The notes: generated by a model from the letters alone, not told the origin. Shown: positions 8,043 to 26,641, numbered from the stretch's first letter. The stretch is 32,000 nucleotides of DNA from Desulfotalea psychrophila LSv54 (GCF_000025945.1 NC_006138.1:1560001-1592000), one strand, 5' to 3'. Program-made: numbers and translations.

Positions 8043-8152
8043 TCATGTAATTCATCAAGTGTGATAAGTTCAAAGCTTACATCATCCCACCAAATACTTA
8101 AAATAATGTAATTTGTCTTTTCCCGCCCCGTTCTCTGTGTACCTGTGACAAT

Positions 8153-8302
8153 ATAAGAAGTTGGCCGATAGTTCTTGGTGGACTTTTGGCTGCCCGCAGG
8201 TCTCTGTTTACAGAAGCCAAATCTCTTTTGAGTTGATGTTGTTTTTTTGATATCATCCGTAGTGGATGCAGGTCTGCGTTTGTCGGCCTTTGAGTCAGGC
8301 AA
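8153..8302 (-). repeat. ~150-nt noncoding-looking repeat, copy A (inverted relative to copy B at 24287-24427)
   Basis: The reverse complement shares long identical runs with copy B: gccgacaaa, cagacctgcatccacta, ggatgatatcaaaaaa, caacatcaactcaaa, tggcttctg, ctatcggccaac. The two copies differ by a 13-nt indel. Confidence 0.7.
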
Positions 8303-8416
8303 GGTTGGCAGGCACCTGGAAAAGGAGGTGAGCCATCCCCGTATAAGTGGCTTTAGTTACATCTTTATCTGATTGATTAAGCAAGGAATTTTTTGAATTT
8401 AAAAGGAGAAAAAATT

Positions 8417-9741: not shown

Positions 9742-10284
9742 ATGAATAATTGGGATCAAGATAAATATCTAGAAGCGTGGAATTTTGCCTCTGCCATTCA
9801 TAATGGGCAAAAGATACCTGGAAGCGATATACCTTATATTAATCACCTTGGGCTCGTTGCAATGGAGGCGGTAGCAACTGTAGCCAATAAAAACATCCAA
9901 AATTCTAATATTCTTGTTTTGTGTGCGTTATTGCATGATTCTATTGAGGATACGGCAACGACCCATGAAGATATTAAAAAAATATTTGGCTCTGATATTG
10001 CTGATGGCGTTTTATCGCTCACTAAAAATAAAAAATTGCCTTCCAAGGTTGAACAAATGCTGGACAGTATTGCTAGAATAAAAACTCAACCTAAAGAGGT
10101 GTGGATGGTTAAGTTATGTGATCGAATCACGAATTTACAACCACCGCCAAGGCACTGGAACAAAGAAAAAATTGGCAAATATCAAAATGAAGCTCGCCTT
10201 ATATTAGAGAAATTAGGAGAGGCAAGCCAGTTTCTTGCAGAAAGATTAAAAATGAAAATTGATGCATATGACCAATATTTATAA
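9742..10284 (+). CDS. Stand-alone HD-domain protein of the RelA/SpoT hydrolase type (small alarmone hydrolase-like)
   Basis: PYINHLGLVAMEA...LLHDSIEDTATTHEDIKKIFGSDIADGVLSLT matches the (p)ppGpp hydrolase HD motif layout. About 180 aa, with no synthetase domain. Confidence 0.7.
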   Translation: MNNWDQDKYLEAWNFASAIHNGQKIPGSDIPYINHLGLVAMEAVATVANKNIQNSNILVLCALLHDSIEDTATTHEDIKKIFGSDIADGVLSLTKNKKLPSKVEQMLDSIARIKTQPKEVWMVKLCDRITNLQPPPRHWNKEKIGKYQNEARLILEKLGEASQFLAERLKMKIDAYDQYL

Positions 10285-10292
10285 AAATCATA

Positions 10293-10360
10293 GGCCCTGT
10301 TGCATAAATTATGAGGGAAAAAAATCAGCTCTTCTCTACTCCATCTCATCTGCTTATAGC
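10293..10360 (+). mobile_element. Partial MITE copy (one terminal repeat plus ~50 nt)
   Basis: ggccctgttgcataaattatgagggaaaaaaatcagctcttctctactccatc aligns with the left end of the full copy at 20623. I found no matching right end. Confidence 0.5.
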
Positions 10361-10807
10361 ACTCTTTGCTGTCCGCGGCACCATCGCCTGATATCTGTTT
10401 AATGCGACGACGAAGAGGGTTCAATAAGGGTCTCAAGGCCTTGGCATCACGAACTGACTTTATTGGAATTTCACTTAGGCGATTAGTTTCTGTATCAATA
10501 GCAAGGTGAAATTTGTGTCAAATTCTATGCCTTGCAGCTCCCTCTTCTTCATCTATCTTGCCCGTGCTTTCCGTCCTGCCCTATGATTATTAACTTCCCT
10601 TGGCCAGGCTGGTGAGACTTGAACTTGACTGCTTGAGCTCGATTGCATTGTCATGCTTCGTCCTCTCAATCCAGGTTGTTCAGTGTTGGACCAATTTTTG
10701 CTAACTATTCCAGTGAAATGTGGAGGGTGAGTCTGAATGATAGTTTCTGCAGAGAAAAGTATTGATTCTTTGTGTTTTTAAAATAATTTACATATAATTT
10801 TTTTATG

Positions 10808-15640: not shown

Positions 15641-15807
15641 GGCCTTGTTGCTTAAATAGAAGTTGTCAGCATTGCTCGATGATGTTTTCTTATAACATAG
15701 AGCATTGGAGGATGCAGGGGAGACAGCAGGAGAAAGATCGAAAACTGGCCGGAGTGGGGCAGAGAGAGGAGCTAGTTTTTTTCCCTCATGCTTTATGCAA
15801 TAAGGCC
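15641..15807 (-). mobile_element. MITE, short variant (167 bp), inverted relative to the copy at 20623
   Basis: Ends are ggccttgttgcttaaat (left) and, reverse-complemented, ggccttattgcataaag (right). An internal 36-nt run gatgatgttttcttataacatagagcattggaggat is identical to the reverse complement of the 20623 copy. Confidence 0.7.
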
Positions 15808-15950: not shown

Positions 15951-16515
15951 ATGGATATATCAGCAATAGCAAAATTTATAAAATCACCTACCTTGTATAT
16001 TTTTCTTACCTGTATCATTAGTGGCATGTTCTTGTTTTTAACTGAATCTTTTTTAACTGATTTAGAGCTTATTTCGTTTGAGAAGGATTATAAAAAATGG
16101 GTTACTGTTGTCTTTCTTTTCTCGTTAGGTTTTTTTGTTTTGAACCTACTGAATATGGCATATAAAAACTATCAAAAGAACTACCAGGAAAAAATTGTTG
16201 AAGCTGAAATTAATGAACATAAAAAAGATTCTCTAAAAAAATAGTCGTGATGCCAAAGCCTTAACGTCAACTTGGGATGATCGCGAAAAATCGATATTAA
16301 GAGAGTTTTTTGTTCAAGAAAAAAAGATGATTGAAATGTCAAATGACGACCCTGTAGCTCTTGGTCTTATAGATAAGCACATTATAAGCCAAGTTGGCAA
16401 AAACGATACTGATAATAATATAATTGGTTTGACCTGCTACTTTGAAATTACTGAAGAGGCGAAAGAACTTATTGAACAGTTTGGGCTTGATAAAACCAAT
16501 CAGGTAAACAACTAA
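15951..16515 (+). pseudogene. Superinfection-exclusion protein B (SieB)-like gene split by a frameshift in an A7 tract
   Basis: ORF1 (15951-16244) is a two-TM N-terminus followed by a Lys-rich helix. The +1 frame is open from 16237 and reads KNSRDAKALTSTWDDREKSILREFFVQEKKMIEMSNDDPVALGLIDKHIISQVG, as in SieB-like proteins. The junction is the A-run at 16235-16241, and removing one A joins the two frames. Confidence 0.55.
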
Positions 16516-18577: not shown

Positions 18578-19852
18578 TTAAAGATATTCTTTCCAGTGCT
18601 TGCGTTTTGTTTTTGCGGGTTTTCCTGCCTGCCCCTTAGATTTACCTTTACGCCGAGGTGGATCAGGTTCAAAATTACCATACTCCTCATCTTCATCTGA
18701 TAACACTACTGCTGGCTTCTTGCTCGGCGCAAAACCTTGGACGATATCACGTTCAAATTTACGGCCAATCAGCTTCTCAATAGAGGCGAGTTGCTGAGCT
18801 TCATCTTCACTGAAAAATGAAACCGCTAAGCCAGAGGTACCAGCACGGCCGGTACGACCAATGCGATGCACATAGTCTTCTGCTACATAGGGGAGATCAA
18901 AGTTAATCACGCACGGTAGTTGATGAACATCAATGCCCCGAGAGGCAATATCTGTTGCGACCAATACCACAACACTCCCGTTTTTAAAACCATCTAAGGC
19001 ACGTGTCCGTGCATATTGGGTTCTGTTGGCATGAATTGATTCGGCATTAATGCCAGCTTCTTTGAGCTGAGTAACTAAGGTGTCGGCTCCACGCTTGGTA
19101 CGACTAAAGACCAAAAGTTGCTGCCAATTGTACTTTTTAATTAGGTGAATCAATAATGCACTCTTTCGTTCCTGATCTACAGGATGCATTTTCTGCTTAA
19201 TGGAATCGACAATATTTTTATCGGTATCCACTTCAATCAAAACAGGATCATGTAGCATGCCCCCTGCAAGTGACTTGATCTCTTCTGAAAATGTAGCTGA
19301 GAACATCAAAGTTTGACGCTTGGCTGGAAGTAATGTTTGGATGTGACGGATATCGTCGATAAAGCCTAAATCCAACATACGATCTGCTTCATCGAGTACC
19401 AATATTTTAAGTGCGTCAAAGCTCACTGCCTGTTGATTATAAAGATCAAGCAAACGGCCAGGTGTTGCAACAAGCACATCTAGACCAGCCTGTAGTTTGG
19501 CTATCTGTGGCTCAATTCTTACTCCACCAAATGCTGCGCCAGTGCGAATATTCATCATGCTGCCATAGGTTTGAACACTTTCGGCAACTTGAGCTGCAAG
19601 CTCACGGGTTGGTGTAATAACAAGCGCACGTACTGTGCATGGCTGTGGACTATCGCCACCAGACAATAACTGTACCATAGGTAAGGTAAAGCCAGCCGTT
19701 TTTCCCGTGCCAGTGTGTGCCACCGCCATAACATCACGCTGATTCAGCACCACTGGAATAGCTTCCGTTTGTATCTGTGATGGAGTGGTGTATCCTTGCT
19801 CTGCGACGGTTTGCAAAAGTTCATCACACAAGCCTAAAATGGCAAATGACAT
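18578..19852 (-). CDS. rhlE: DEAD-box ATP-dependent RNA helicase
   Basis: Q-motif GYTTPSQIQ, AHTGTGKT, PTRELA, VLDEADRMLDLGF, SAT, HRIGRTGRAG, and a basic C-terminal tail. Confidence 0.9.
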   Translation of the reverse strand: MSFAILGLCDELLQTVAEQGYTTPSQIQTEAIPVVLNQRDVMAVAHTGTGKTAGFTLPMVQLLSGGDSPQPCTVRALVITPTRELAAQVAESVQTYGSMMNIRTGAAFGGVRIEPQIAKLQAGLDVLVATPGRLLDLYNQQAVSFDALKILVLDEADRMLDLGFIDDIRHIQTLLPAKRQTLMFSATFSEEIKSLAGGMLHDPVLIEVDTDKNIVDSIKQKMHPVDQERKSALLIHLIKKYNWQQLLVFSRTKRGADTLVTQLKEAGINAESIHANRTQYARTRALDGFKNGSVVVLVATDIASRGIDVHQLPCVINFDLPYVAEDYVHRIGRTGRAGTSGLAVSFFSEDEAQQLASIEKLIGRKFERDIVQGFAPSKKPAVVLSDEDEEYGNFEPDPPRRKGKSKGQAGKPAKTKRKHWKEYL

Positions 19853-19971: not shown

Positions 19972-20052
19972 TTGGCAACCAGCGAAGCGCATCCCAAACA
20001 GCGCCTTGGTATGTGCGCTAATATTTATTATGAGTATCTGCTTGGTTGGCAA
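19972..20052. other. Weak attC-like element bounded by TTGGCAAC / GTTGGCAA
   Basis: cTTGGCAACCagcgaag...ctgcttgGTTGGCAACC. The flanks are partly self-complementary, and the element lies directly after the stop of the 140-aa ORF. Orientation is ambiguous because the core is near-palindromic. Confidence 0.25.
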
Positions 20053-20064
20053 CCTAAGGCTGGC

Positions 20065-20487
20065 CTATTCTGCTAAGAGCTTTTTAAGCAGCTCATCTAT
20101 TTCCCTTTGAAGTTCTTTATCTACAATTTTATTCGCACTAATTTTGGCTTCTTGGAGATTCTTGAGAGCTTCGTCAGTTCGACCTAATTCTACCTGTAAT
20201 GTAGCCATAGAGTATGCAATTGAAGACATATGGTCTTTTGAATTTATAGCGATTGCCTTCTCCAGGGCCTTTTCGTAGCCAGTTACGGCAACTTCCAAAT
20301 TTTCTGTAAAATCCGCAAGTGTTTCCCACTGTTCAGGGTGATCTTTGGCGGTATTTTCGTTATCGATGCAAATAGCCTTGAGTTCTGCATAGAGCCTATC
20401 AAATTCCTTTTCACTCTTTTGCTTAGACGCATGCATGAGCTTTTCAGACAGGGTATAGACGGCCTTATATATCTTGCTATTAATCAT
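20065..20487 (-). CDS. Hypothetical 140-aa all-helical (TPR-like) protein
   Basis: ORF only, in an AT-rich segment. The helical-repeat flavour (…AYSMATLQVELGRTDEALKNLQEAK…) is suggestive, with no firm family. Confidence 0.5.
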   Translation of the reverse strand: MINSKIYKAVYTLSEKLMHASKQKSEKEFDRLYAELKAICIDNENTAKDHPEQWETLADFTENLEVAVTGYEKALEKAIAINSKDHMSSIAYSMATLQVELGRTDEALKNLQEAKISANKIVDKELQREIDELLKKLLAE

Positions 20488-20622
20488 TACTCATTACCTT
20501 TTCTCTACAAAATGATTTTTTAGTGAGATGAAACAAAGTACATTATGCTGGAGGTGGACAGCAAGCGCAAGATATTAAAATTTGAAAAGTGGGTGAGCGG
20601 GAGCCGGTTTTCGATCCTACAC

Positions 20623-20905
20623 GGCCTTGTTGCATAAATCATGAGGGCAGAAAATCATCTTCCCTCCACTCCATTACATCTTAGCAAACAGTCTCTCGAA
20701 CAGGCATTCCAAAAGCGGTAATCTTGTTTAAAGCTTCAATCGCTTTTTTGTCCACCCAAAACGTTAACATCATTACTTCAGTGCCCTTATACTCCGACCA
20801 ATTTTTGATCTTTCCCCTGCTCTCTCCCCTGTATCCTCCAATGCTCTATGTTATAAGAAAACATCATCGAACAATGCTCGCAACTTCTATTTGTGCAACA
20901 AGGCC
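20623..20905 (+). mobile_element. MITE, long variant (283 bp) with 17-nt terminal inverted repeats
   Basis: The left end is ggccttgttgcataaat. The right end reverse-complemented is ggccttgttgcacaaat (16 of 17). It has no ORF of its own, and its right part overlaps the 3' end of ORF 20864-21322. Confidence 0.75.
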
Positions 20906-21322
20906 CCATGGGGTTAATAATTTTATTGTATTTATTGTGTATTTAGCACTTTTATTAAGTGCATTTATATCTCGTGTAACACAATTAATTAAACCCCACC
21001 CATCTTGGTGTTTCCAATAATTTGCTCCCGCATTTATTACTTTAATATACGAAAGCTCATCTGTTATTTTTTTGCCTAGCTTTAAAGCATCATCTTTTCT
21101 AACATCTAATTGAGGGTATGTGCTTGAAATATATCGTTGAATTAGTGAAAACCCTACACCGATAAAATATTCACCTTTGTCGCATAATCTATCTGAATCA
21201 GGATCAGCAGAAAGGCTTATTTCATTGTTAATAGCTTTAACTTTAAAATCAAGGTGTTCTAGCATTTCTGTAAGAAAATAGAAATCACTGTCAGCAAACT
21301 CTTTTCCAATTTTGAGATACAT
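20864..21322 (-). CDS. Hypothetical 152-aa protein; the last ~13 codons are supplied by the inserted MITE
   Basis: ATG at 21322 lies 31 nt after the attC-like core and is preceded by ACGGAG. The reading frame crosses into the MITE after ...LLTPWG. Contains ...INAGANYWKHQDGW... Confidence 0.55.
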   Translation of the reverse strand: MYLKIGKEFADSDFYFLTEMLEHLDFKVKAINNEISLSADPDSDRLCDKGEYFIGVGFSLIQRYISSTYPQLDVRKDDALKLGKKITDELSYIKVINAGANYWKHQDGWGLINCVTRDINALNKSAKYTINTIKLLTPWGLVAQIEVASIVR

Positions 21323-21353
21323 ATAACAGCTCCGTACACTGAACTATAGATAA

Positions 21354-21461
21354 GCCTAACGCTTCGTTAACTGGCGCATAGGTTGCTATTGTTTTTACTC
21401 TTTTTCTTTTGCAAAAACGATGACAGCCGTTTACGTGTCCGCGTTTAACGACTTGTTGTAT
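21354..21461 (-). other. attC-like site (minus-strand top strand)
   Basis: The minus strand reads (tg)ATACAAC-AAGTC-GTTAAAC...GTTAAC-GAAGC-GTTAGGC. That is an inverse core (6 of 7 to RYYYAAC) overlapping the stop codon, 5-nt spacers, L boxes pairing with one extra A, and a perfect GTTRRRY core. Confidence 0.55.
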
Positions 21462-22099
21462 CAATGGCTAATGATTTCAATTAGTATTTCTCCGTACTTA
21501 TTTTTTGTGTATATAACCCCACCTGAATCTTCTTCTCCAGCTACCCCACCATCAATGCCGCCGAAGCTTAAAAAACCTACTTTATAAAGCTCTCCAGCAG
21601 TAAGTTGGTCATTTGGACAACCATTTGAAAAATCAACGATGTACTTTAAATCACCATAAAATGAGCGCTCAATCATCAGGCATATACGAATAGTTTCATC
21701 ATAATTACATTGATTCATGAAAAGACGTTCAAATACTTTTGCGTACAATTCGAATTTCCTTGAATCATCAGCTTTTTCAATAAGAGATAATACAGTTTCT
21801 CCAAATCTTTCTCGTTGTTCAGCCTCAAGCATTTCCTCAGCAATAAACCGAAGCCGCGCCTCCTCATTAGTTTTATTTAGCTCAGATAGGAAACGGATAA
21901 GTTTTTTTACATACTGCCTTTCTTTTACCGCAATACCAGTCTTGAAAATAGCTATGGCAGAACCTACTATTGGAATGTCCTTTAAAAAACCATTTTCCAA
22001 TACGGAATCTACCGCTATCTCAGCTAGGTTAGTTCCAGTACCTTCAAGCTTTTGTCCCATAGTTTGGACTATCGATTCTTCTAATTTCAATTCACTCAT
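21461..22099 (-). CDS. Hypothetical 212-aa protein
   Basis: ATG at 22099 lies 32 nt after the preceding attC-like core. No family recognised (…FLKDIPIVGSAIAIFKTGIAVKERQYVKKLIRFLSEL…). Confidence 0.6.
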   Translation of the reverse strand: MSELKLEESIVQTMGQKLEGTGTNLAEIAVDSVLENGFLKDIPIVGSAIAIFKTGIAVKERQYVKKLIRFLSELNKTNEEARLRFIAEEMLEAEQRERFGETVLSLIEKADDSRKFELYAKVFERLFMNQCNYDETIRICLMIERSFYGDLKYIVDFSNGCPNDQLTAGELYKVGFLSFGGIDGGVAGEEDSGGVIYTKNKYGEILIEIISH

Positions 22100-22131
22100 A
22101 GTAACTCTAGATTTAAGTTATTCACTTATGG

Positions 22132-22198
22132 ATATAACGCTAAGTTGAGCGGCGCCGATTACGGCGTTCGAGTGCAGGGCGCGAACGCACTGTTAGCC
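22132..22198 (-). other. attC-like site (best example)
   Basis: The minus strand reads GGCTAAC-AGTGC-GTTCGCGCC...GGCGCCGCTCAAC-TTAGC-GTTATAT. From memory, this is the same box and spacer architecture as classical attC sites such as attC-aadA7 (GTCTAAC-AATTC-GTTCAAGC...GCTTAAC-TCAAGC-GTTAGAT). Confidence 0.6.
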
Positions 22199-22375
22199 TG
22201 CACTTAAAACTGGGCTTATTTCGCTCTCCCTAGTGGTTATTGACAGGCCAGCATCATCTTTCAGTTTGATAGGTTTAGTCGAATAGCACATTTACCATAT
22301 GCCTAACATTGATTGATATCGAAAAAAGACTTTTTATAACATATTGTTGGCCTAAAGATGCTGTTTTTTAGTTGA

Positions 22376-22445
22376 CCCAAACAGTAGGTTCGCGCCCTGG
22401 TTCGAGTGCTGCTTTCAGTCGAGCAGCTCGAACGACTGGTTAGAT
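22376..22445 (-). other. attC-like site with a degenerate 3' core
   Basis: The minus strand reads ATCTAAC-CAGTC-GTTCGAGCTGCT...AGCAGCACTCGAAC-CAGGGC..., then GTTTGGG. The inverse core is perfect and starts 4 nt after the stop at 22450. The R-prime side is irregular. Confidence 0.4.
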
Positions 22446-22449
22446 GTTT

Positions 22450-22958
22450 TTATAATTTATCTGGTTTTTTAATCATTTCTTTTTCATACTGTTGAATTAG
22501 ATTTTTATTTATACATTCTTGTACATTACGAGTAAGAGAATATAAGTTTTTTTCTGATCTAATAGGCAAATCTAAAGCAAATTTAGTTAAATGTACTGAC
22601 AGCGTTTTGTGATTTTTAGATTTTAATTGTAACGTTAGGTTAGATTTTTTTTTTCTAAATGACAAATTATTTCATACTGATGTTGTCTTTTTTGAAACTC
22701 TGGCTCTTCATTGGAGGAATTTTGCAAAACACTGTTAGATGCATGATAGTTTAATAAGACTTGATTGATTTGTATGAGCAATGCTTCATCTTGCTTTTTT
22801 TTATTAATTGACTCTTGATTTCTTTGGGCAAAAAACTTTCTCCCACAGCCAATAATGCACCCAGAATTATATATAGTAGTTCCATTTTTTACACCTAACA
22901 AGTTATTCTTCACTTTCCTGATATCATCCCAAATCACAATTTGATAATGCTTTTTCAT
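22450..22958 (-). pseudogene. Hypothetical gene split into 115-aa and 71-aa ORFs at an A10 tract
   Basis: The A-run (plus-strand T-run 22645-22654) sits exactly at the junction: ...ICHLEKKNLT-stop versus (TTG)SFRKKKSNLTLQLK... One extra A would give a single product of about 175-180 aa. I place the start at ATG 22958 (MKKHYQIV...). Confidence 0.45.
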
Positions 22959-23034
22959 CCATGATCCTGCCAGCCTTACCAATCAACTTACAGCACTCCA
23001 ACCTAAGCGCCCACGGCTACCCTCCTTACAAAGG

Positions 23035-23100
23035 GGTGTGCTAACAGTCTCCAACCACTGTCCTACACTATTACTTTTTTATGAGCAATAGTTAAGCACC
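23035..23100 (-). other. Weak attC-like element upstream of the first cassette-like ORF
   Basis: On the minus strand, GGTGCTTAAC...GTTAGCACACC are complementary ends, and GCTTAAC fits RYYYAAC. The inner arms are asymmetric. Confidence 0.25.
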
Positions 23101-23127
23101 TTTAGGTGTACGTGCGGGGTCCGCTAC

Positions 23128-23292
23128 GATTGGTTGGCGAAGATTATGCAGCAACATCGGGATAAAAATGAAAAAGAGAGGCACGGGTGTGGAATGGATG
23201 GGGCCATTGCCTATGCTGGCAGAAGAAACAGATTGTTACAAGGGTTGGGCTGCGATAAGGCCCGCAGCACCGGGCAATTGGGGCGCAGCGGA
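23128..23292 (+). repeat. Dispersed repeat family R2, copy 2
   Basis: See 14002-14160. Both copies have the same orientation and begin with gattggttggc. Confidence 0.4.
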
Positions 23293-23382
23293 AAGCTATC
23301 CACCCACTATATGCCATAAATCGGTTTTCTTCTTCAGCTTGAGTGCTGTTGTTATGCGCTTTTTAGAAGTCCAGTAAGGTTG

Positions 23383-24111
23383 TCATAGTTTCCACGGCCT
23401 AAACTTTTGATCAGCCCCAAATAGGAGTAAGCCGGACGTAAGATCATTACCAGACGGGATTTGGAGTCGTTTACTCAACGACCGAAGAACCTTATCGACA
23501 CGTTTAGGTGGTTCCAAAAGGAATGTTTTACCTTCTGGTGTGGTACATAAAGATGGACTCGTAAGACTATGGTACGCCCTGCATAAGACAGGTCGTTGCT
23601 CATATATCCTGCAGGTTCGATTGAAAAGTAGCGGACATGGCTTACCTTCTTGCGATAGCTTATAGTGAGCTTCATATATCACTGGATGGTCGCTTGGAAT
23701 AGTAGTTATTCCAGGTTCTAGAAGAGCCTGAACTGCTTTCTGAAATTCGGAAGCATACTCAACAAGAAGTTTGTGGATATCTTTGTAGTCCTCAAATTGT
23801 CGTATCCTACGATAGAGAGATATGATCTCAAATGAGTAAAGCCCTCGGACTGGCTGTTTACAGCATCGATCACAAGTTAAATGGCAGGCGATTTCAAGGT
23901 TTGCTTCGACGGTATTGTGGTAAATATAATTATCATAAATACTGTAAAACTCTTGAAGCAATTCGAAGAACTCGTCAGGCAACCAACCAGTTACTGCAAA
24001 ATTATCGATCTCATGAACAGTATTAAGTTTGTTTGCCGCGACCACCATGCAATCAGTAAGCTGACGAGATTCATCATCATTAAGGGTTGGTAATTTTATT
24101 GGTTCATGCAT
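23383..24111 (-). CDS. YkgJ-family Cys-cluster (CxxCxxCC-type) zinc/iron-chelating domain protein
   Basis: CHLTCDRCCKQPV, and a distal CPLLFNRTCRIYEQRPVLCRAY. ATG at 24111; the track start at 24123 is a TTG. Confidence 0.7.
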   Translation of the reverse strand: MHEPIKLPTLNDDESRQLTDCMVVAANKLNTVHEIDNFAVTGWLPDEFFELLQEFYSIYDNYIYHNTVEANLEIACHLTCDRCCKQPVRGLYSFEIISLYRRIRQFEDYKDIHKLLVEYASEFQKAVQALLEPGITTIPSDHPVIYEAHYKLSQEGKPCPLLFNRTCRIYEQRPVLCRAYHSLTSPSLCTTPEGKTFLLEPPKRVDKVLRSLSKRLQIPSGNDLTSGLLLFGADQKFRPWKL

Positions 24112-24286
24112 GTGTACCCCCAAAACTCCATTCGCATAAAAAAATATCGTCCAGAAACGGGATATCTTTCAGCCGAAGTCAACCTGACAAGGCGATTTCT
24201 ATCCTGATAATATGCTGTTAACCTGACGCCATTCAATAAAGAGCAATAACCGGACAATCTCCCGCATGAGCCAGATTTTTTTCTGG

Positions 24287-24427
24287 CCTTGCCTGACCCA
24301 ACCGCCGACAAATACAGACCTGCATCCACTATGGATGATATCAAAAAAGCAACATCAACTCAAAGAGGTCTGGCTTCTGCAAGCATACAGCCACACCCGC
24401 AGACAGGGCTATCGGCCAACATCTTAT
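24287..24427 (+). repeat. ~150-nt repeat, copy B (inverted partner of 8153-8302)
   Basis: See copy A. Weaker similarity continues about 100 nt further on the outer side of both copies. Confidence 0.7.
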
Positions 24428-24740
24428 CCTCTCATAGGGAATATTCAGAAGCGCACCTCTAATCAGGTAACAGGAAGACGATGCAGGTTGTCTTATACGG
24501 CAGGGATAGGGAGAAGGCGGCCAGCATGCTGATTAAAATAGTATCAGGGGCAAGCAGGGGACTGTGCTACAGGTAGGTATGTTCATATAGCACAGAATTC
24601 TACATATGGAGGGCACAGGGTGCCAAAAGAAAGTAGGGCGCTCACAGGACCTCTTAGCGGGTATTACGAGGCAAAAGGATGCCCCAACCATGAACATTCT
24701 GTTGAGGTGTTGCTGGTCGGAGTGCCACCAAGGGAAAGTA

Positions 24741-24762
24741 TTTGTACCCCATTTTGTACCCC
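24741..24762 (+). repeat. Direct repeat TTTGTACCCC x2 (possible recombinase arm-type site)
   Basis: tttgtaccccattttgtacccc read directly. It lies between two tRNA-Pro 3'-end relics (24714 and 24947). Confidence 0.4.
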
Positions 24763-24847
24763 GTCGATATTAGCTCTTATTCCGTCTTATAATAATCCAA
24801 AACCTATATTGATACGCAAGAGGGATAAAAGATTTTTCAAGGGAGGA

Positions 24848-24984
24848 ATGGGGTGGGAGTGGGCTGTTTTTTGTGCATTTCCTGCACCCTCTGCACTTAA
24901 AACAAAAAAGGACCTACAGCAAAAACTGTAAGTGCTTGAAATCGTTTGTCGGAATGAGAGGATTTGAACTTTCGATCTGTTGTC
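24848..24984 (-). repeat. Diverged duplicate of the tRNA-Pro 3' half plus ~100 nt of its downstream flank
   Basis: atggggtgggagtgggctgttttttgtgca...ctctgcacttaaaacaaaaaagg...tgtcggaatgagaggatttgaactttcgatctgttgtc parallels 26448-26600 (gggtggggaggtgagaacgagtgttttttgtgcg...tggtcggaatgagaggattcgaacctccggccccttgtc). Confidence 0.6.
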
Positions 24985-25046
24985 TAGATCCCTGATAAGG
25001 GTGTGGCTTTTTGGGGGAATGGAAAAAATCCGTGAAGCAGATCTTT

Positions 25047-26168
25047 TTATTTGATGCTGATGAGTTGTAAAAAATCATTTTTGTAAGTGACTGGGTATCC
25101 TTTTGCTATTATCGTCTTTCCGCTTTGATCCCGCCATGTGTATTCCTTATTGTTACTGAGATAGAGATATACAAGTTTTGTGTATCCTTTAGCAGGTATT
25201 TGATATCTGTTGTAGGCACAGTAGGTATTGCCTTTGGCAGTTGTCCATGCACAGATTTCAGTGGTTTCTGCTAATGTTTTTATTTCCGGTTCCCTTTCTG
25301 CTTGGTGAAAAGCAGTTTTTTGAGATTTTTCTGTTATGTTTGGCTGTGGCGTGACATTTTGCACAGATGGTGCTACTTGAATTGAATGCTTAGTGGGTGG
25401 CTGTAGCTGTGAAAATCTTGGTAAAAAAAGGGGAATTGCTAAAAATATGACCAAGCAACATGTTGCAATTATAGTCTTTTGTTGCCATGTGAAGCTCTGC
25501 TTTTTAGGTTGATTCTGGTCATATTGTAATGTTGTCCCATCAATCAAAACTACCCCAGATAAGCGAGCAAACTCTATTGCTTCATGAGTAAATGTTCCTG
25601 ACGTGACTACAAATGCACCATCTAAATGGTGAGCCTGCATAACACCGTATATTTCACGGATAACAGTAACTCCTACTCGATAGACCTTCCAGTGTTTGCA
25701 CTGAACAATATATTTTTTCTCGTCTCTTTTTAGCCAAACATCAACCCCACCATCAGAACTTTGCTTGATGTTGTTTTTTACCCTGTAGCCTTGATTTTTA
25801 AAATATTCTCCTGTGAAATATTCGAAATCTTGCCATGTTAATTCGGTCACAGATTCTTTTTCAAAAGCAGTTTTAGTTGCTCTTTTGTAGAGAAATTTTT
25901 TGAACAATGACTGGATAGCTCCAATAACAAGAGAAAAAGGCACGACAACTTGTCCAAATATAGCAATTGTTTGTAGAACACGAGGCAGGATAGAGGCAAA
26001 GAGCCCCTCTATTCCCATTTGAGGCGGGGGAAGTGGTTTTATTGCAAAGTAATGCAGCAAGGTAAAAGAAAGAAGTGCACAAACAAGGTAAAGCCACCAA
26101 GGAAGGTCTGAGAAACAAAGGTCTATAAAATTTTCTAGTGTACTTTTTCTTTTATTTGACATAAGCAA
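25047..26168 (-). CDS. Membrane-anchored Mrr-like (Mrr_cat type) restriction endonuclease-fold protein with an extra TM helix and an unknown C-terminal domain
   Basis: N-terminal TM helices are followed by WQDFEYFTGEYFKNQGYRV...DGGVDVWLKRDEKKYIVQCKHW (a D...QxK nuclease core), GAFVVTSGTFT, a further TM helix (IIATCCLVIFLAIPLFL), and about 120 aa of unknown fold. Confidence 0.75.
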   Translation of the reverse strand: MLMSNKRKSTLENFIDLCFSDLPWWLYLVCALLSFTLLHYFAIKPLPPPQMGIEGLFASILPRVLQTIAIFGQVVVPFSLVIGAIQSLFKKFLYKRATKTAFEKESVTELTWQDFEYFTGEYFKNQGYRVKNNIKQSSDGGVDVWLKRDEKKYIVQCKHWKVYRVGVTVIREIYGVMQAHHLDGAFVVTSGTFTHEAIEFARLSGVVLIDGTTLQYDQNQPKKQSFTWQQKTIIATCCLVIFLAIPLFLPRFSQLQPPTKHSIQVAPSVQNVTPQPNITEKSQKTAFHQAEREPEIKTLAETTEICAWTTAKGNTYCAYNRYQIPAKGYTKLVYLYLSNNKEYTWRDQSGKTIIAKGYPVTYKNDFLQLISIK

Positions 26169-26341
26169 TCAAACGATTCATCCAGGTCGTGGCTGACCTC
26201 TAGCCAAGACTTTTCGATAGAAACTTTTCGCATTGTTAACTTGATTTCGTAGAGATCTTCCTCTGCAATGTTAGAAGAAAGTATGTCGGCAATACTCCCT
26301 ATCCCTTCAAGTAAACTTCTATTTATGGTTGAGAATTTCAT
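26135..26341 (-). CDS. Small acidic hypothetical protein (68 aa) overlapping the start of the nuclease gene
   Basis: ORF only, with an ATG start. Its 3' end overlaps the nuclease ORF by about 30 nt. Confidence 0.35.
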   Translation of the reverse strand: MKFSTINRSLLEGIGSIADILSSNIAEEDLYEIKLTMRKVSIEKSWLEVSHDLDESFDCLCQIKEKVH

Positions 26342-26512
26342 AGCCTAATAATATACATGTTGGAGCTATCCTGTCAATATATGGAGGAACGTTAAGTGTG
26401 GATGAATATTTTCTATAGGGTGGTTAATACGGGTATTTTGAAGAAACAATGGGTGGGGAGGTGAGAACGAGTGTTTTTTGTGCGTCCTCTGCACTTATCT
26501 TGCACGTAAAAC

Positions 26513-26552
26513 AAAAAAAGGGCCTTAAAAGCTTTATCAGCTCTTAAGGCCC
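26513..26552 (-). terminator. Rho-independent terminator of tRNA-Pro
   Basis: The minus strand reads GGGCCTTAAGAGCT-gataa-AGCTTTTAAGGCCC followed by TTTTTTTGTTTT. Confidence 0.8.
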
Positions 26553-26563
26553 TATGCAAATAA

Positions 26564-26641
26564 TGGTCGGAATGAGAGGATTCGAACCTCCGGCCCCTTG
26601 TCCCCCAGACAAGTGCGCTAACCAGGCTGCGCTACATTCCG
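26564..26641 (-). tRNA. tRNA-Pro (anticodon GGG)
   Basis: The minus strand reads CGGAATG-TA-GCGC-AGCCTGGTTA-GCGC-A-CTTGT-CTGGGGG-ACAAG-GGGCC-GGAGG-TTCGAAT-CCTCT-CATTCCG-A-CCA. This is a full cloverleaf with a 7-nt anticodon loop (GGG at positions 34-36, G37) and an encoded CCA. Confidence 0.92.

What the first reader, a model, noticed from the sequence alone, without database searches (positions are those of the whole stretch)
19972..23100. Integron-like gene cassette array without an integrase: unknown ORFs separated by attC-like sites
Reading the minus strand between 23.1 and 20 kb, short promoterless-looking ORFs are separated by imperfect palindromes with the attC architecture (inverse core RYYYAAC, 5-nt spacer, L boxes, spacer, core GTTRRRY).
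- 22132-22198: GGCTAAC-AGTGC-GTTCGCGCC...GGCGCCGCTCAAC-TTAGC-GTTATAT.
- 21354-21461: ATACAAC-AAGTC-GTTAAAC...GTTAAC-GAAGC-GTTAGGC.
- 22376-22445: ATCTAAC-CAGTC-GTTCGAG...CTCGAAC, with an irregular 3' side.
- Weaker candidates lie at 23035-23100 and 19972-20052.
The geometry is cassette-like. The inverse core starts 0-4 nt after the upstream stop codon, and the next ATG lies 31-32 nt after the core in two cases. The L-box pairing leaves unpaired bases, as in functional attC sites. One interval (22199-22375) is an ORF-less cassette-sized spacer that contains additional GTTAGGC and GTTATAA cores. All sites share one orientation, and the region is AT-rich relative to the flanks. No intI gene or recognisable attI is present in the window. 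This would therefore be a CALIN-type cluster (attC sites lacking an integrase), or the distal part of a larger chromosomal integron. All cassette ORFs are of unknown function.
Basis: partly seen in the sequence, partly recalled or inferred. Interest (0 to 1): 0.7.

Follow-up and report, generated by a model that had tools for sequence, protein, structure and literature searches.

The report
Decayed integron cassette array (CALIN)
This stretch of the Desulfotalea psychrophila chromosome is a small, decaying array of integron gene cassettes with no integrase beside it, a kind of element already catalogued in this genome, and two small transposon-like insertions have damaged it.

Summary
The cassette reading is essentially right; the site list is not. 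The window is Desulfotalea psychrophila LSv54.

- **Real cassette.** The 212-aa ORF has 71-75% identical homologues in Vibrio cassette arrays and one in Celerinatantimonas. Homology starts exactly at G|TTATAT. Its 108-nt attC (21354-21461) is shared with Celerinatantimonas and homology ends at GTTAG|G.
- **Sites 22132-22198 and 22376-22445.** These are the 3' and 5' halves of one 80-nt attC. A 225-bp element splits it, with perfect 12-bp terminal inverted repeats and a 9-bp flanking direct repeat. The "ORF-less cassette" is that insertion.
- **Weak sites.** 23035-23100 and 19972-20052 are not supported.
- **Decay.** The first ORF is frameshifted. The 152-aa ORF is cut at 20905 by a 283-bp element with relatives at 15641-15807 and 10293-10351.
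- **Integrase.** None lies in the window. IntegronFinder 2.0 Table S3 lists three chromosomal CALINs and one In0 for this genome.

Verdict: a genuine CALIN of a known kind, probably already catalogued. Interest is low to moderate.

The parts
23383..24123 (-). 246-aa CxxCxxCC (YkgJ-type) gene. It is either the upstream neighbour of the array or a further cassette; this is tentative.
   Evidence: Pfam PF03692 at E = 8.5e-7. GC is 41.7%. An attC-like 5' half starts about 20 nt after its stop codon. No close relative was found in metagenome contigs.
22981..23357 (-). Tentative over-long attC-like site 'W' (377 nt): GCATAAC-AACAG-CACTCAAGCTGAAG ... CTTAGGTTGGAGTG-CTGTAA-GTTGATT.
   Evidence: The extended scan (up to 450 nt) finds it; the rate in control DNA is 0.62 per 32 kb. 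The inverted repeat is listed. The terminal stem is kept in both the MFE and the centroid structure, but the whole-region z-score is only -0.9. The interior is 50.5% GC.
22450..22958 (-). Cassette-1 ORF (locus tag DP1417 plus the downstream frame). An A10 run at 22645-22654 splits it by a frameshift. It is an orphan.
   Evidence: Overlapping ORFs 22635-22982 and 22450-22665. A10 run. The fused 169-aa query finds only DP1417 itself among 5.8 billion proteins.
22400..22445 (-). 5' half of attC 'X': R'' ATCTAAC, spacer CAGTC, L'' GTT[C]GAGC, and part of the variable region ending in CACTCGAAC.
   Evidence: Sequence. It starts 4 nt after the stop codon. It is half of the only extra strict attC hit, which appears once 22166-22399 is removed.
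22175..22399 (.). The CAGGGCGCGAAC repeats lie at 22175-22186 and 22388-22399. The 9-bp direct repeats CACTCGAAC lie at 22166-22174 and 22400-22408.
   Evidence: The arms extend to 35 nt at 77% complementarity. The fold z-score is -3.75. No other copy was found by the 18-base terminal pattern in genome or metagenome collections.
22132..22165 (-). 3' half of attC 'X': ...GCTCAAC (L'), spacer TTAGC, R' GTTATAT. G|TTATAT is the left boundary of the 212-aa cassette.
   Evidence: Homology to the Vibrio and Celerinatantimonas cassettes begins at CGTTATATC. The reconstructed 80-nt site passes the strict scan with a 7-bp L stem and one bulged base. Its fold probability is 1.3e-3.
21461..22099 (-). 212-aa cassette ORF of unknown function (mostly helical).
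   Evidence: 71-75% identical homologues lie in Vibrio arrays and a 62% identical one in Celerinatantimonas, each with different neighbours. There are no Pfam, NCBIfam or PADLOC hits. The AlphaFold2 model has pLDDT 75.7 and no PDB fold match.
21354..21461 (-). Intact canonical attC 'B' (108 nt): ATACAAC-AAG-TCGTT[A]AAC ... GTTAACGA-AGC-GTTAGGC.
   Evidence: It is the only strict scan hit in the native window. It is orthologous to the attC at L006 2704-2810, and homology ends at GTTAG|G. Its fold probability is 3.3e-4.
20906..21322 (-). Truncated cassette ORF: 139 of about 185 codons are homologous. The annotated ORF is 20864-21322, 152 aa.
   Evidence: Homologues are 175-200 aa long. Homology stops at 20905/6 in every relative. 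With L011 and L012 it extends upstream through the GTTAGGC core to 21361.
20623..20905 (.). 283-bp miniature inverted-repeat element (MITE). Its 17-nt terminal inverted repeats are GGCCTTGTTGCAYAAAT. It sits exactly at the truncation point of the 152-aa ORF.
   Evidence: Inverted repeat matching at 16 of 17 positions. The motif occurs 5 times in the window against 0.22 expected. It is 90% identical over 115 bp to 15641-15755, within the shorter copy at 15641-15807. It is 81% identical over 59 bp to 10293-10351, which overlaps an ORF (10185-10517) with a weak DDE-transposase match.
20065..20487 (-). 140-aa TPR-like gene in the AT-rich tract. It is not shown to be a cassette.
   Evidence: TPR_12 at E = 5.6e-6. 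It is 70% nucleotide-identical to a gene in an ordinary context on a Pseudoalteromonas chromid. Homology covers the gene only and no attC is shared.
19972..20052 (-). Hairpin after the TPR-like gene. It is not an attC.
   Evidence: Fold z-score is -2.3. It has no R/L box architecture and is absent from both the strict and the relaxed scans.

Best explanation
The segment from about 20.6 to 23.0 kb, and possibly to 24.1 kb, is a CALIN. That is a short array of integron gene cassettes on the D. psychrophila LSv54 chromosome with no adjacent integrase.

**How it arose (inferred).** Each unit was once a promoterless circular cassette. An integron integrase inserted it by single-strand recombination at the G|TT of a folded attC hairpin.

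**What remains**
1. An orphan ORF, now frameshifted at an A10 run. Its 80-nt attC 'X' has been split by a 225-bp insert with terminal inverted repeats and a 9-bp flanking duplication.
2. An intact 212-aa cassette with an intact 108-nt attC 'B'.
3. A third cassette whose 3' end and attC were lost at the edge of a 283-bp MITE belonging to a family with other copies in this genome.

**Consequence (inferred).** Excising the 212-aa cassette needs X and B together. Only B is intact, so the array is best seen as a largely immobilised, decaying fossil. An integrase supplied in trans could at most act on it weakly; IntegronFinder lists an In0 on the same chromosome.

**What is shown.** The cassette boundaries, the attC architecture, the insertions, the ORF damage, and the absence of a local integrase.

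**What is inferred.** The past integrase-mediated insertion, the present loss of mobility, and expression only by read-through.
For: - **Source.** The 212-aa and 152-aa proteins are 100% identical to D. psychrophila proteins on a 3.52-Mb contig, and the first ORF carries the tag DP1417.
- **Cassette mobility.** Homologues of the 212-aa ORF sit in co-oriented arrays of small genes in Vibrio and Celerinatantimonas. The neighbours differ each time.
- **Boundaries.** The DNA alignment is unrelated upstream of CGTTATATC in all six sequences. Downstream, the window and L006 share the whole attC up to GTTAG|G.
- **attC scan.** The strict scan gives 12, 3, 7, 4, 3 and 7 sites in the control arrays and 1 in the window. 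Removing 22166-22399 adds a second site. The false-positive rate is 0.37-0.38 per 32 kb.
- **Insert in X.** It has perfect 12-bp terminal inverted repeats and abutting 9-bp direct repeats. The arms extend to 35 nt.
- **Fold probabilities.** X is 1.3e-3, B is 3.3e-4 and the Vibrio control is 3.6e-3.
- **Truncation.** The 152-aa gene's homology ends at 20905/6, exactly at a MITE terminus. Other family copies lie in the window.
- **No local integrase**.
- **No terminator or promoter signal.** The palindromes do not match the terminator pattern, and promoter-like sites are below chance.
- **Published catalogue.** IntegronFinder 2.0 Table S3 lists 3 CALINs and an In0 on this chromosome.
Against: - IntegronFinder's attC covariance model could not be run. 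My surrogate model missed most of its own full-length training sites, so it says nothing.
- The published table gives no coordinates. That this array is one of the listed CALINs is likely but unproven.
- No second copy of the 225-bp insert and no uninterrupted copy of attC X was found. The 'single split attC' reading therefore rests on the inverted-repeat and direct-repeat signature and on pairing logic alone.
It could act as a hybrid site.
- The left end of cassette 1 is not defined by homology, because that ORF is an orphan.
- No related Desulfotalea genome could be examined for an empty site.
Confidence: 0.8

Rival explanations
1. There are three independent attC sites (22376-22445, 22132-22198, 21354-21461), and 22199-22375 is a genuine ORF-less cassette.
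For: - Both disputed sites carry AAC-5 nt-GTT modules.
- 22376-22445 read as ATCTAAC-5-GTTCG...CGAAC-5-GTTTGGG appears in the relaxed scan and folds with probability 6.9e-3.
- ORF-less cassettes exist in integrons (general knowledge).
- IntegronFinder lists one CALIN with 3 attC sites and 5 proteins in this genome. That could be this array.
Against: - Neither site passes the strict scan. The relaxed level at which 22376-22445 appears is pure chance (53 hits against 55.8 expected).
- The 22132-22198 fold probability is 2.5e-8.
- L''/L' complementarity crosses the interval. GTTCGCGCCCTG at 22175-22186 pairs perfectly over 12 bp with 22388-22399, not with its supposed partner. GTT[C]GAGC at the 5' end pairs canonically with GCTCAAC at the 3' end.
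- Identical 9-bp repeats abut the 12-bp inverted repeats. This parse does not explain that pattern.
Confidence: 0.15
2. The palindromes are ordinary transcription terminators or regulatory hairpins between vertically inherited genes, and the region is not integron-related.
For: Intergenic hairpins directly after stop codons are common.
Against: - No T-tract terminator pattern lies at any of the sites.
- The ORF plus its flanks recurs in Vibrio and Celerinatantimonas arrays, with boundaries at G|TT and with varying neighbours.
- The array is about 9 GC points below its flanks.
Confidence: 0.03
3. The array is the distal end of a complete sedentary chromosomal integron whose intI and attI lie just outside the window.
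For: - The genome has an integron integrase somewhere on the chromosome (In0).
- The cassettes share one orientation.
Against: - About 9 kb upstream and 20 kb downstream of the array were examined. They hold housekeeping genes and a tRNA-Pro islet, with no integrase and no further strict attC hits.
- IntegronFinder classed the integrase as In0, meaning it has no attC nearby.
Confidence: 0.02

Closest known systems
CALIN (cluster of attC sites lacking an integron integrase; Cury et al. 2016, IntegronFinder, PMC4889954 and PMC9024848)
   Same: - Two or more co-oriented attC sites lie within 4 kb.
- The cassettes are promoterless.
- No intI lies nearby.
- The ORFs are of unknown function.
- There are signs of pseudogenisation.
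- The same genome is listed with CALINs in IntegronFinder 2.0 Table S3.
   Different: One of the two solid attC sites is interrupted by a 225-bp inverted-repeat element, so in its present state only one site is intact. A MITE truncates the last cassette.
Sedentary chromosomal integrons (superintegrons) of Vibrio and relatives
   Same: They share an actual cassette, the 212-aa ORF at 71-75% amino-acid identity, with the same G|TTATAT start. The attC architecture is also shared: AAC-AAG...AGC-GTT, with a bulged base after GTT.
   Different: - There is no intI, attI or Pc, and only 3-4 units instead of tens to hundreds.
- The attC sites here are heterogeneous (80, 108 and possibly 377 nt). Vibrio arrays carry a homogeneous 126-nt repeat family.
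- The window's attC B matches the atypical site in Celerinatantimonas, not the Vibrio-type repeats.
Mobile elements that insert into attC sites (the IS1111-attC group and group IIC-attC introns; from general knowledge, not tested here)
   Same: A foreign element sits inside an attC and separates its two halves.
   Different: Those elements are over 1 kb, encode a transposase or a reverse transcriptase, and make no target duplication. This insert is 225 bp, non-coding, has 12-bp perfect terminal inverted repeats and a 9-bp duplication. It has no known relative.
Isolated cassettes inserted at genomic attG sites (SALIN; Loot et al., bioRxiv 10.1101/2022.09.11.507474)
   Same: Cassettes lie outside an integron platform, in ordinary chromosomal DNA, possibly placed there by an integrase acting in trans.
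   Different: Here several cassettes are contiguous. The insertion junction with host DNA could not be identified.

Membership tests
CALIN / integron cassette array | At least two attC sites, co-oriented, less than 4 kb apart | tested here: met
   attC B (21354-21461) is intact. attC X (22132-22165 plus 22400-22445) is 670 bp away on the same strand, but a 225-bp insert splits it.
CALIN / integron cassette array | attC architecture: R''(..AAC), spacer, L'' ... L', spacer, R'(GTT..), with an imperfect stem and an extrahelical base | tested here: met
   My own strict scan was validated on six control arrays, on shuffles and on 250 kb of unrelated DNA. B passes, and X passes once the insert is removed. 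Both have a bulged base directly after GTT. Their fold probabilities are in the range of a Vibrio attC.
CALIN / integron cassette array | Hit to the IntegronFinder attC covariance model | not testable with these tools
   The model is not available here and Rfam has no attC family (one search returned only a tRNA). My surrogate model R1 missed most of its own 126-nt training sites, so it is uninformative. Published IntegronFinder 2.0 output lists CALINs in this genome, but without coordinates.
CALIN / integron cassette array | No integron integrase within about 4 kb | tested here: met
   No Phage_integrase or other recombinase domain appears in any ORF of 100 aa or more, in the ten largest frames of unassigned regions, or in the six frames of 24100-25060.
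CALIN / integron cassette array | Cassettes are discrete mobile units: the same ORF and boundaries occur in other arrays with different neighbours | tested here: met
   Met for the 212-aa cassette. Partly met for the 152-aa cassette, where the 5' boundary GTTAGGC is shared with L011 and L012. Not met for the orphan ORF or the TPR-like gene.
CALIN / integron cassette array | attC sites recombine with an integron integrase | not testable with these tools
   This needs a suicide-conjugation or excision assay.
Complete integron | intI gene with adjacent attI and Pc promoter | tested here: not met
   No integrase was found. Promoter-like sites are below chance.
MITE / non-autonomous transposable element (225-bp insert, 22175-22399) | Terminal inverted repeats | tested here: met
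   12 of 12 bases are perfect, extending to 35 nt at 77%.
MITE / non-autonomous transposable element (225-bp insert, 22175-22399) | Target-site duplication abutting both ends | tested here: met
   CACTCGAAC lies at 22166-22174 and 22400-22408.
MITE / non-autonomous transposable element (225-bp insert, 22175-22399) | Multiple copies, or a related autonomous element | tested here: not met
   The 18-base terminal pattern gives only single chance matches in 185,579 species genomes and in JGI metagenomes. There is no further copy in the window. The rest of the D. psychrophila genome was not retrievable with the look-ups tried.
MITE family GGCCTTGTTGCAYAAAT (283-bp element, 20623-20905) | Terminal inverted repeats, several copies, and a link to a transposase-bearing parent | tested here: met
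   The motif occurs 5 times in the window against 0.22 expected. The element matches 15641-15755 at 90% over 115 bp, within the shorter copy at 15641-15807. The end at 10293-10351 overlaps an ORF (10185-10517) with a weak DDE_Tnp_1 match, E = 4e-4 and below Pfam's cut-off. No target duplication is visible.

The most novel reading that the evidence does not exclude
The 225-bp insert may not be an ordinary MITE. It could be a circularly permuted ORF-less cassette, or an attC-mimicking element.

- **What the ends look like.** One end carries L'(GGCGCGAAC)-CTACT-R'(GTTTGGG). The other carries R''(GGCTAAC)-AGTGC-L''(GTTCGCGCC).
- **What joining them gives.** Joined across one copy of the 9-bp repeat, they form a 57-nt hairpin with canonical attC spacing. 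It folds with probability 0.85.
- **What the arrangement resembles.** The order 5'X-repeat-3'Y ... 5'Y-repeat-3'X is what integration of a small circle would give, if the circle recombined through a sequence shared by the loops of two attC hairpins.
- **What it would imply.** A route of insertion into attC sites other than the R-box crossover, or small elements that use attC-like ends.
Probability: 0.08. Interest if true: 0.55.

Novelty: already known. Interest (0 to 1): 0.22.

Why it matters
CALINs are thought to be graveyards, or reservoirs usable in trans, of integron cassettes. This one adds little in principle.

It does give a clean example of a cassette shared between a psychrophilic sulfate reducer (Desulfobulbales) and marine Gammaproteobacteria (Vibrio, Celerinatantimonas). 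The boundaries are conserved to the base, and in one case the same attC is shared.

It also shows how such arrays decay. One attC is split by a small inverted-repeat element. One cassette is truncated by a MITE. One ORF has a homopolymer frameshift.

For annotation, the practical lesson is that attC half-sites flanking an insertion can be misread as two sites plus an 'ORF-less cassette'.

Tried and rejected
- **Surrogate attC covariance model.** R1 was built from 31 trimmed attC sites of the control arrays. It gave no significant hit in the window. It also missed most of its own 126-nt training sites, because it cannot absorb a long variable region. I discarded it as uninformative.
The MFE structures do not show the attC fold, even for the genuine site. 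This was not decisive, so I replaced it with constrained fold probabilities.
- **Relaxed architecture scan.** It gave 53 hits against 55.8 expected, so it carries no information. The weak sites cannot be rescued this way.
- **Search for other copies of the 225-bp element.** The terminal pattern gave 24 single hits in species genomes and 23 in metagenomes. None extends beyond about 22 nt, so all are chance. The window's own locus was not returned either, so that stretch or genome is apparently masked or absent in that collection.
- **Synteny and empty-site search.** Exact look-ups of D. psychrophila proteins found nothing or only contigs under 1 kb. The CxxCxxCC protein has no close relative in metagenome contigs. 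The D. psychrophila plasmid is not in PLSDB.
- **Function of the cassette proteins.** Pfam, NCBIfam, PADLOC, PDB sequence search, AlphaFold2 models (pLDDT 75.7 and 92.8) and Foldseek against the PDB gave no significant match.
- **Frameshift reading of the 152-aa ORF's 3' end.** I rejected it. The short NIEHWR and ERAGERSK matches are not significant. DNA homology ends cleanly at the MITE terminus.
- **TPR-like gene as a cassette.** Not supported.
- **Degraded intI in 24.1-25.05 kb.** No domain hit in any of the six frames.

Full report
**Source and setting.** The 212-aa and 152-aa ORFs are 100% identical to Desulfotalea psychrophila proteins on a 3,523,383-bp contig. The first ORF carries the tag 177439.DP1417. 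The window is therefore the LSv54 chromosome.

The candidate array lies on the minus strand. On one side are a DEAD-box helicase gene (18578-19852) and a permease gene. On the other are a CxxCxxCC-domain gene (23383-24123), a tRNA-Pro, ihfA and pheST. The segment 20053-22987 has 36.5% GC, against 45.7% for the rest of the window.

**Is any of it a real cassette?** Yes.
- The 212-aa ORF has 71-75% identical homologues in V. alginolyticus, V. natriegens, V. vulnificus and V. parahaemolyticus. A 62% identical homologue occurs in Celerinatantimonas yamalensis.
- In five Vibrio contigs and the Celerinatantimonas contig it sits in runs of small co-oriented genes: acetyltransferases, toxin-antitoxin genes and unknowns. 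The neighbours differ each time.
- Repeats with the classic attC pattern of Vibrio cassette arrays separate those genes.
- In a six-way DNA alignment, everything upstream of CGTTATATC is unrelated. From that core onward all six sequences align.
- Downstream of the stop codon, the window and Celerinatantimonas share the whole 108-nt palindrome up to GCGTTAG|G and then diverge. The Vibrio copies carry their own Vibrio-type attC (BLAST limits).

These are exactly the G|TT crossover points of integron cassettes.

**A mechanical attC test.** IntegronFinder is not available, so I wrote a strict architecture scan. It requires:
- xxxxAAC, then a 5-nt spacer;
- an L''/L' stem of at least 6 bp with at most one bulged base;
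- a 5-6 nt spacer, then GTTxxxx;
- at least 6 of 8 matches to RYYY and RRRY, and a total length of 45-150 nt.

The scan finds 12, 3, 7, 4, 3 and 7 sites in the six control arrays, all on the cassette strand. It finds 0.37 per 32 kb in shuffles and 3 in 250 kb of unrelated DNA. In the native window it finds exactly one site, 21354-21461. A relaxed version runs at chance level (53 hits against 55.8 expected), and even it does not find 23035-23100 or 19972-20052.

**The 'ORF-less cassette' is an insertion.**
- The interval 22175-22399 begins and ends with a perfect 12-bp inverted repeat, CAGGGCGCGAAC. It is seen nowhere else in the window at zero mismatches. The arms extend to 35 nt at 77%.
- Identical 9-bp direct repeats, CACTCGAAC, abut it at 22166-22174 and 22400-22408.
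- Deleting the element and one repeat copy joins the two halves into an 80-nt site: ATCTAAC-CAGTC-GTT[C]GAGC...GCTCAAC-TTAGC-GTTATAT.
- That site passes the strict scan. Its L stem is 7 bp with the bulged base in the canonical position, and 6 of 7 R''/R' positions pair.
- Constrained folding of the bottom strands gives these probabilities of the recombinogenic fold: 1.3e-3 for the reconstructed site, 3.3e-4 for site B and 3.6e-3 for a Vibrio attC. The 22376-22445 parse, with R' GTTTGGG, reaches 6.9e-3 with fewer constrained pairs, so a weak hybrid site cannot be excluded.

The L-box complementarity also 'crosses' the interval, as an insertion predicts.

No other copy of the element turned up. 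Its 18-base terminal pattern gave only single chance matches in 185,579 species genomes and in JGI metagenomes. I therefore call it MITE-like, not a member of a MITE family. Joined across the repeat, its ends would form a 57-nt hairpin with attC-like spacing. I record this as the low-probability novel reading.

**Decay of the other units.**
- *Cassette 1.* It comprises two overlapping frames that an A10 run separates (22645-22654). One extra A fuses them. The fused protein has no homologue other than DP1417 itself.
- *The 152-aa ORF.* It belongs to a family of 175-200-aa proteins.
  - Protein and DNA homology stop at 20905/6 in all relatives.
  - With two marine contigs, homology runs upstream through the GTTAGGC core. 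The 5' cassette boundary is therefore conserved, but the 3' end and its attC are gone.
  - The break coincides to the base with the terminus of a 283-bp element bounded by GGCCTTGTTGCAYAAAT.
- *The 283-bp element's family.*
  - The terminal motif occurs five times in the window, against 0.22 expected.
  - The element is 90% identical over 115 bp to 15641-15755, within a shorter copy at 15641-15807.
  - It is 81% identical over 59 bp to 10293-10351. That end overlaps an ORF with a weak DDE-transposase match.
- *The TPR-like gene (20065-20487).* It is 70% nucleotide-identical to a gene in an ordinary context on a Pseudoalteromonas chromid. No attC is shared. It is not shown to be a cassette.

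**A possible further unit.**
- An extended scan (up to 450 nt) recovers the split site X and also a 377-nt site at 22981-23357.
- The 5' half of this site, GCATAAC-AACAG-CACTCAAG..., starts about 20 nt after the CxxCxxCC stop codon.
- Its 3' half, ...GGAGTG-CTGTAA-GTTGATT, ends 22 nt before the cassette-1 ATG.
- The rate of such hits in control DNA is 0.62 per 32 kb.
- The terminal stem survives in both the MFE and the centroid structure, but the overall z-score is -0.9.

I treat this as tentative.

**Integrase and prior knowledge.** No recombinase domain occurs anywhere in the window. The literature search found nothing in main texts. Table S3 of the IntegronFinder 2.0 paper (PMC9024848) lists the following for GCF_000025945.1:
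- on the chromosome, a CALIN with 2 attC sites and 2 proteins;
- a CALIN with 2 attC sites;
- an In0, which is an integrase with no attC sites nearby;
- a CALIN with 3 attC sites and 5 proteins;
- on a plasmid, a further CALIN.

The table gives no coordinates, so the match to this array is probable but unproven. The genome does encode an integron integrase elsewhere.

**Mechanism.**
- *Shown:* the cassette boundaries, the attC architecture, the two insertions, the ORF damage, and the absence of a local integrase, promoter signal or terminator signal.
- *Inferred:* an integron integrase once inserted the cassettes at G|TT. Excising the 212-aa cassette today would need X and B together. With the halves of X now 225 bp further apart, the fold should form rarely. 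The array is therefore a largely frozen remnant, transcribed if at all by read-through.

**Function.** The function of the cassette proteins remains unknown after the family, structure and fold searches.

**Verdict.** This is a genuine CALIN of a known kind, very likely already catalogued. The site map needs correcting as above. Interest is low to moderate.

Noticed in passing
window 24873-26641: tRNA-Pro (GGG) lies at 26564-26641 on the minus strand. A degenerate copy (about 80%) of its 3' part and downstream sequence lies at 24873-24984. Together they bracket a 373-aa Mrr-type restriction endonuclease gene (25047-26168). This looks like a small islet inserted at the tRNA 3' end, with no integrase left.
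   Followed up: partly
window 10293-10351, 15641-15807, 20623-20905: A MITE/IS family has terminal inverted repeats GGCCTTGTTGCAYAAAT. The motif occurs 5 times in the window against 0.22 expected. The copy at 10293-10351 overlaps an ORF (10185-10517, minus strand) with a weak DDE_Tnp_1 match. No target duplication is visible at the two complete copies.
   Followed up: partly
window 15951-16512: Two consecutive plus-strand frames both match the superinfection-exclusion protein SieB (profile positions 4-72 and 79-120). This is probably a frameshifted gene. It lies in an AT-rich islet (15-16.7 kb, 37-40% GC) that also holds a MITE copy.
   Followed up: no
window 24287-24438 and 8142-8304: A non-coding inverted repeat of about 160 nt (77% identity) links the ORF-free 24.1-24.9 kb region and the 8.1-8.3 kb region. 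Its nature is unknown and there is no Rfam hit.
   Followed up: no
window 22645-22654: An A10 homopolymer separates the two frames of the first cassette ORF (DP1417). One extra A would restore a protein of about 169 aa. This could be a sequencing error, slippage or a real pseudogene.
   Followed up: partly
L007-L010 (for example L007 2390-6564); window 20864-21322: The closest full-length homologues of the truncated 152-aa ORF (83% identity, 187 aa) are the last gene of a four-gene block. Its 563-aa reverse transcriptase matches the PADLOC model RT_UG36 (defence-associated RT) at E = 2e-116. A paralogue (P0081) lies on a 121,587-bp D. psychrophila contig, probably the large plasmid.
   Followed up: partly
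window 22981-23357: A long-range attC-like pairing bridges the whole gap between the CxxCxxCC gene and the first cassette ORF.
   Followed up: partly
window 22175-22399 (ends): Both termini of the 225-bp insert carry an AAC-5 nt-GTT module (GCGAAC-CTACT-GTTTGGG and GGCTAAC-AGTGC-GTTCGC), which is attC half-site spacing. Joined across the 9-bp repeat, they give a 57-nt near-perfect hairpin.
   Followed up: partly
Genome-contig collection: The exact 18-base pattern taken from the window did not retrieve the window's own locus. This stretch, or the whole D. psychrophila genome, seems to be masked or absent in that collection. Exact-protein look-ups for this genome also failed.
   Followed up: no
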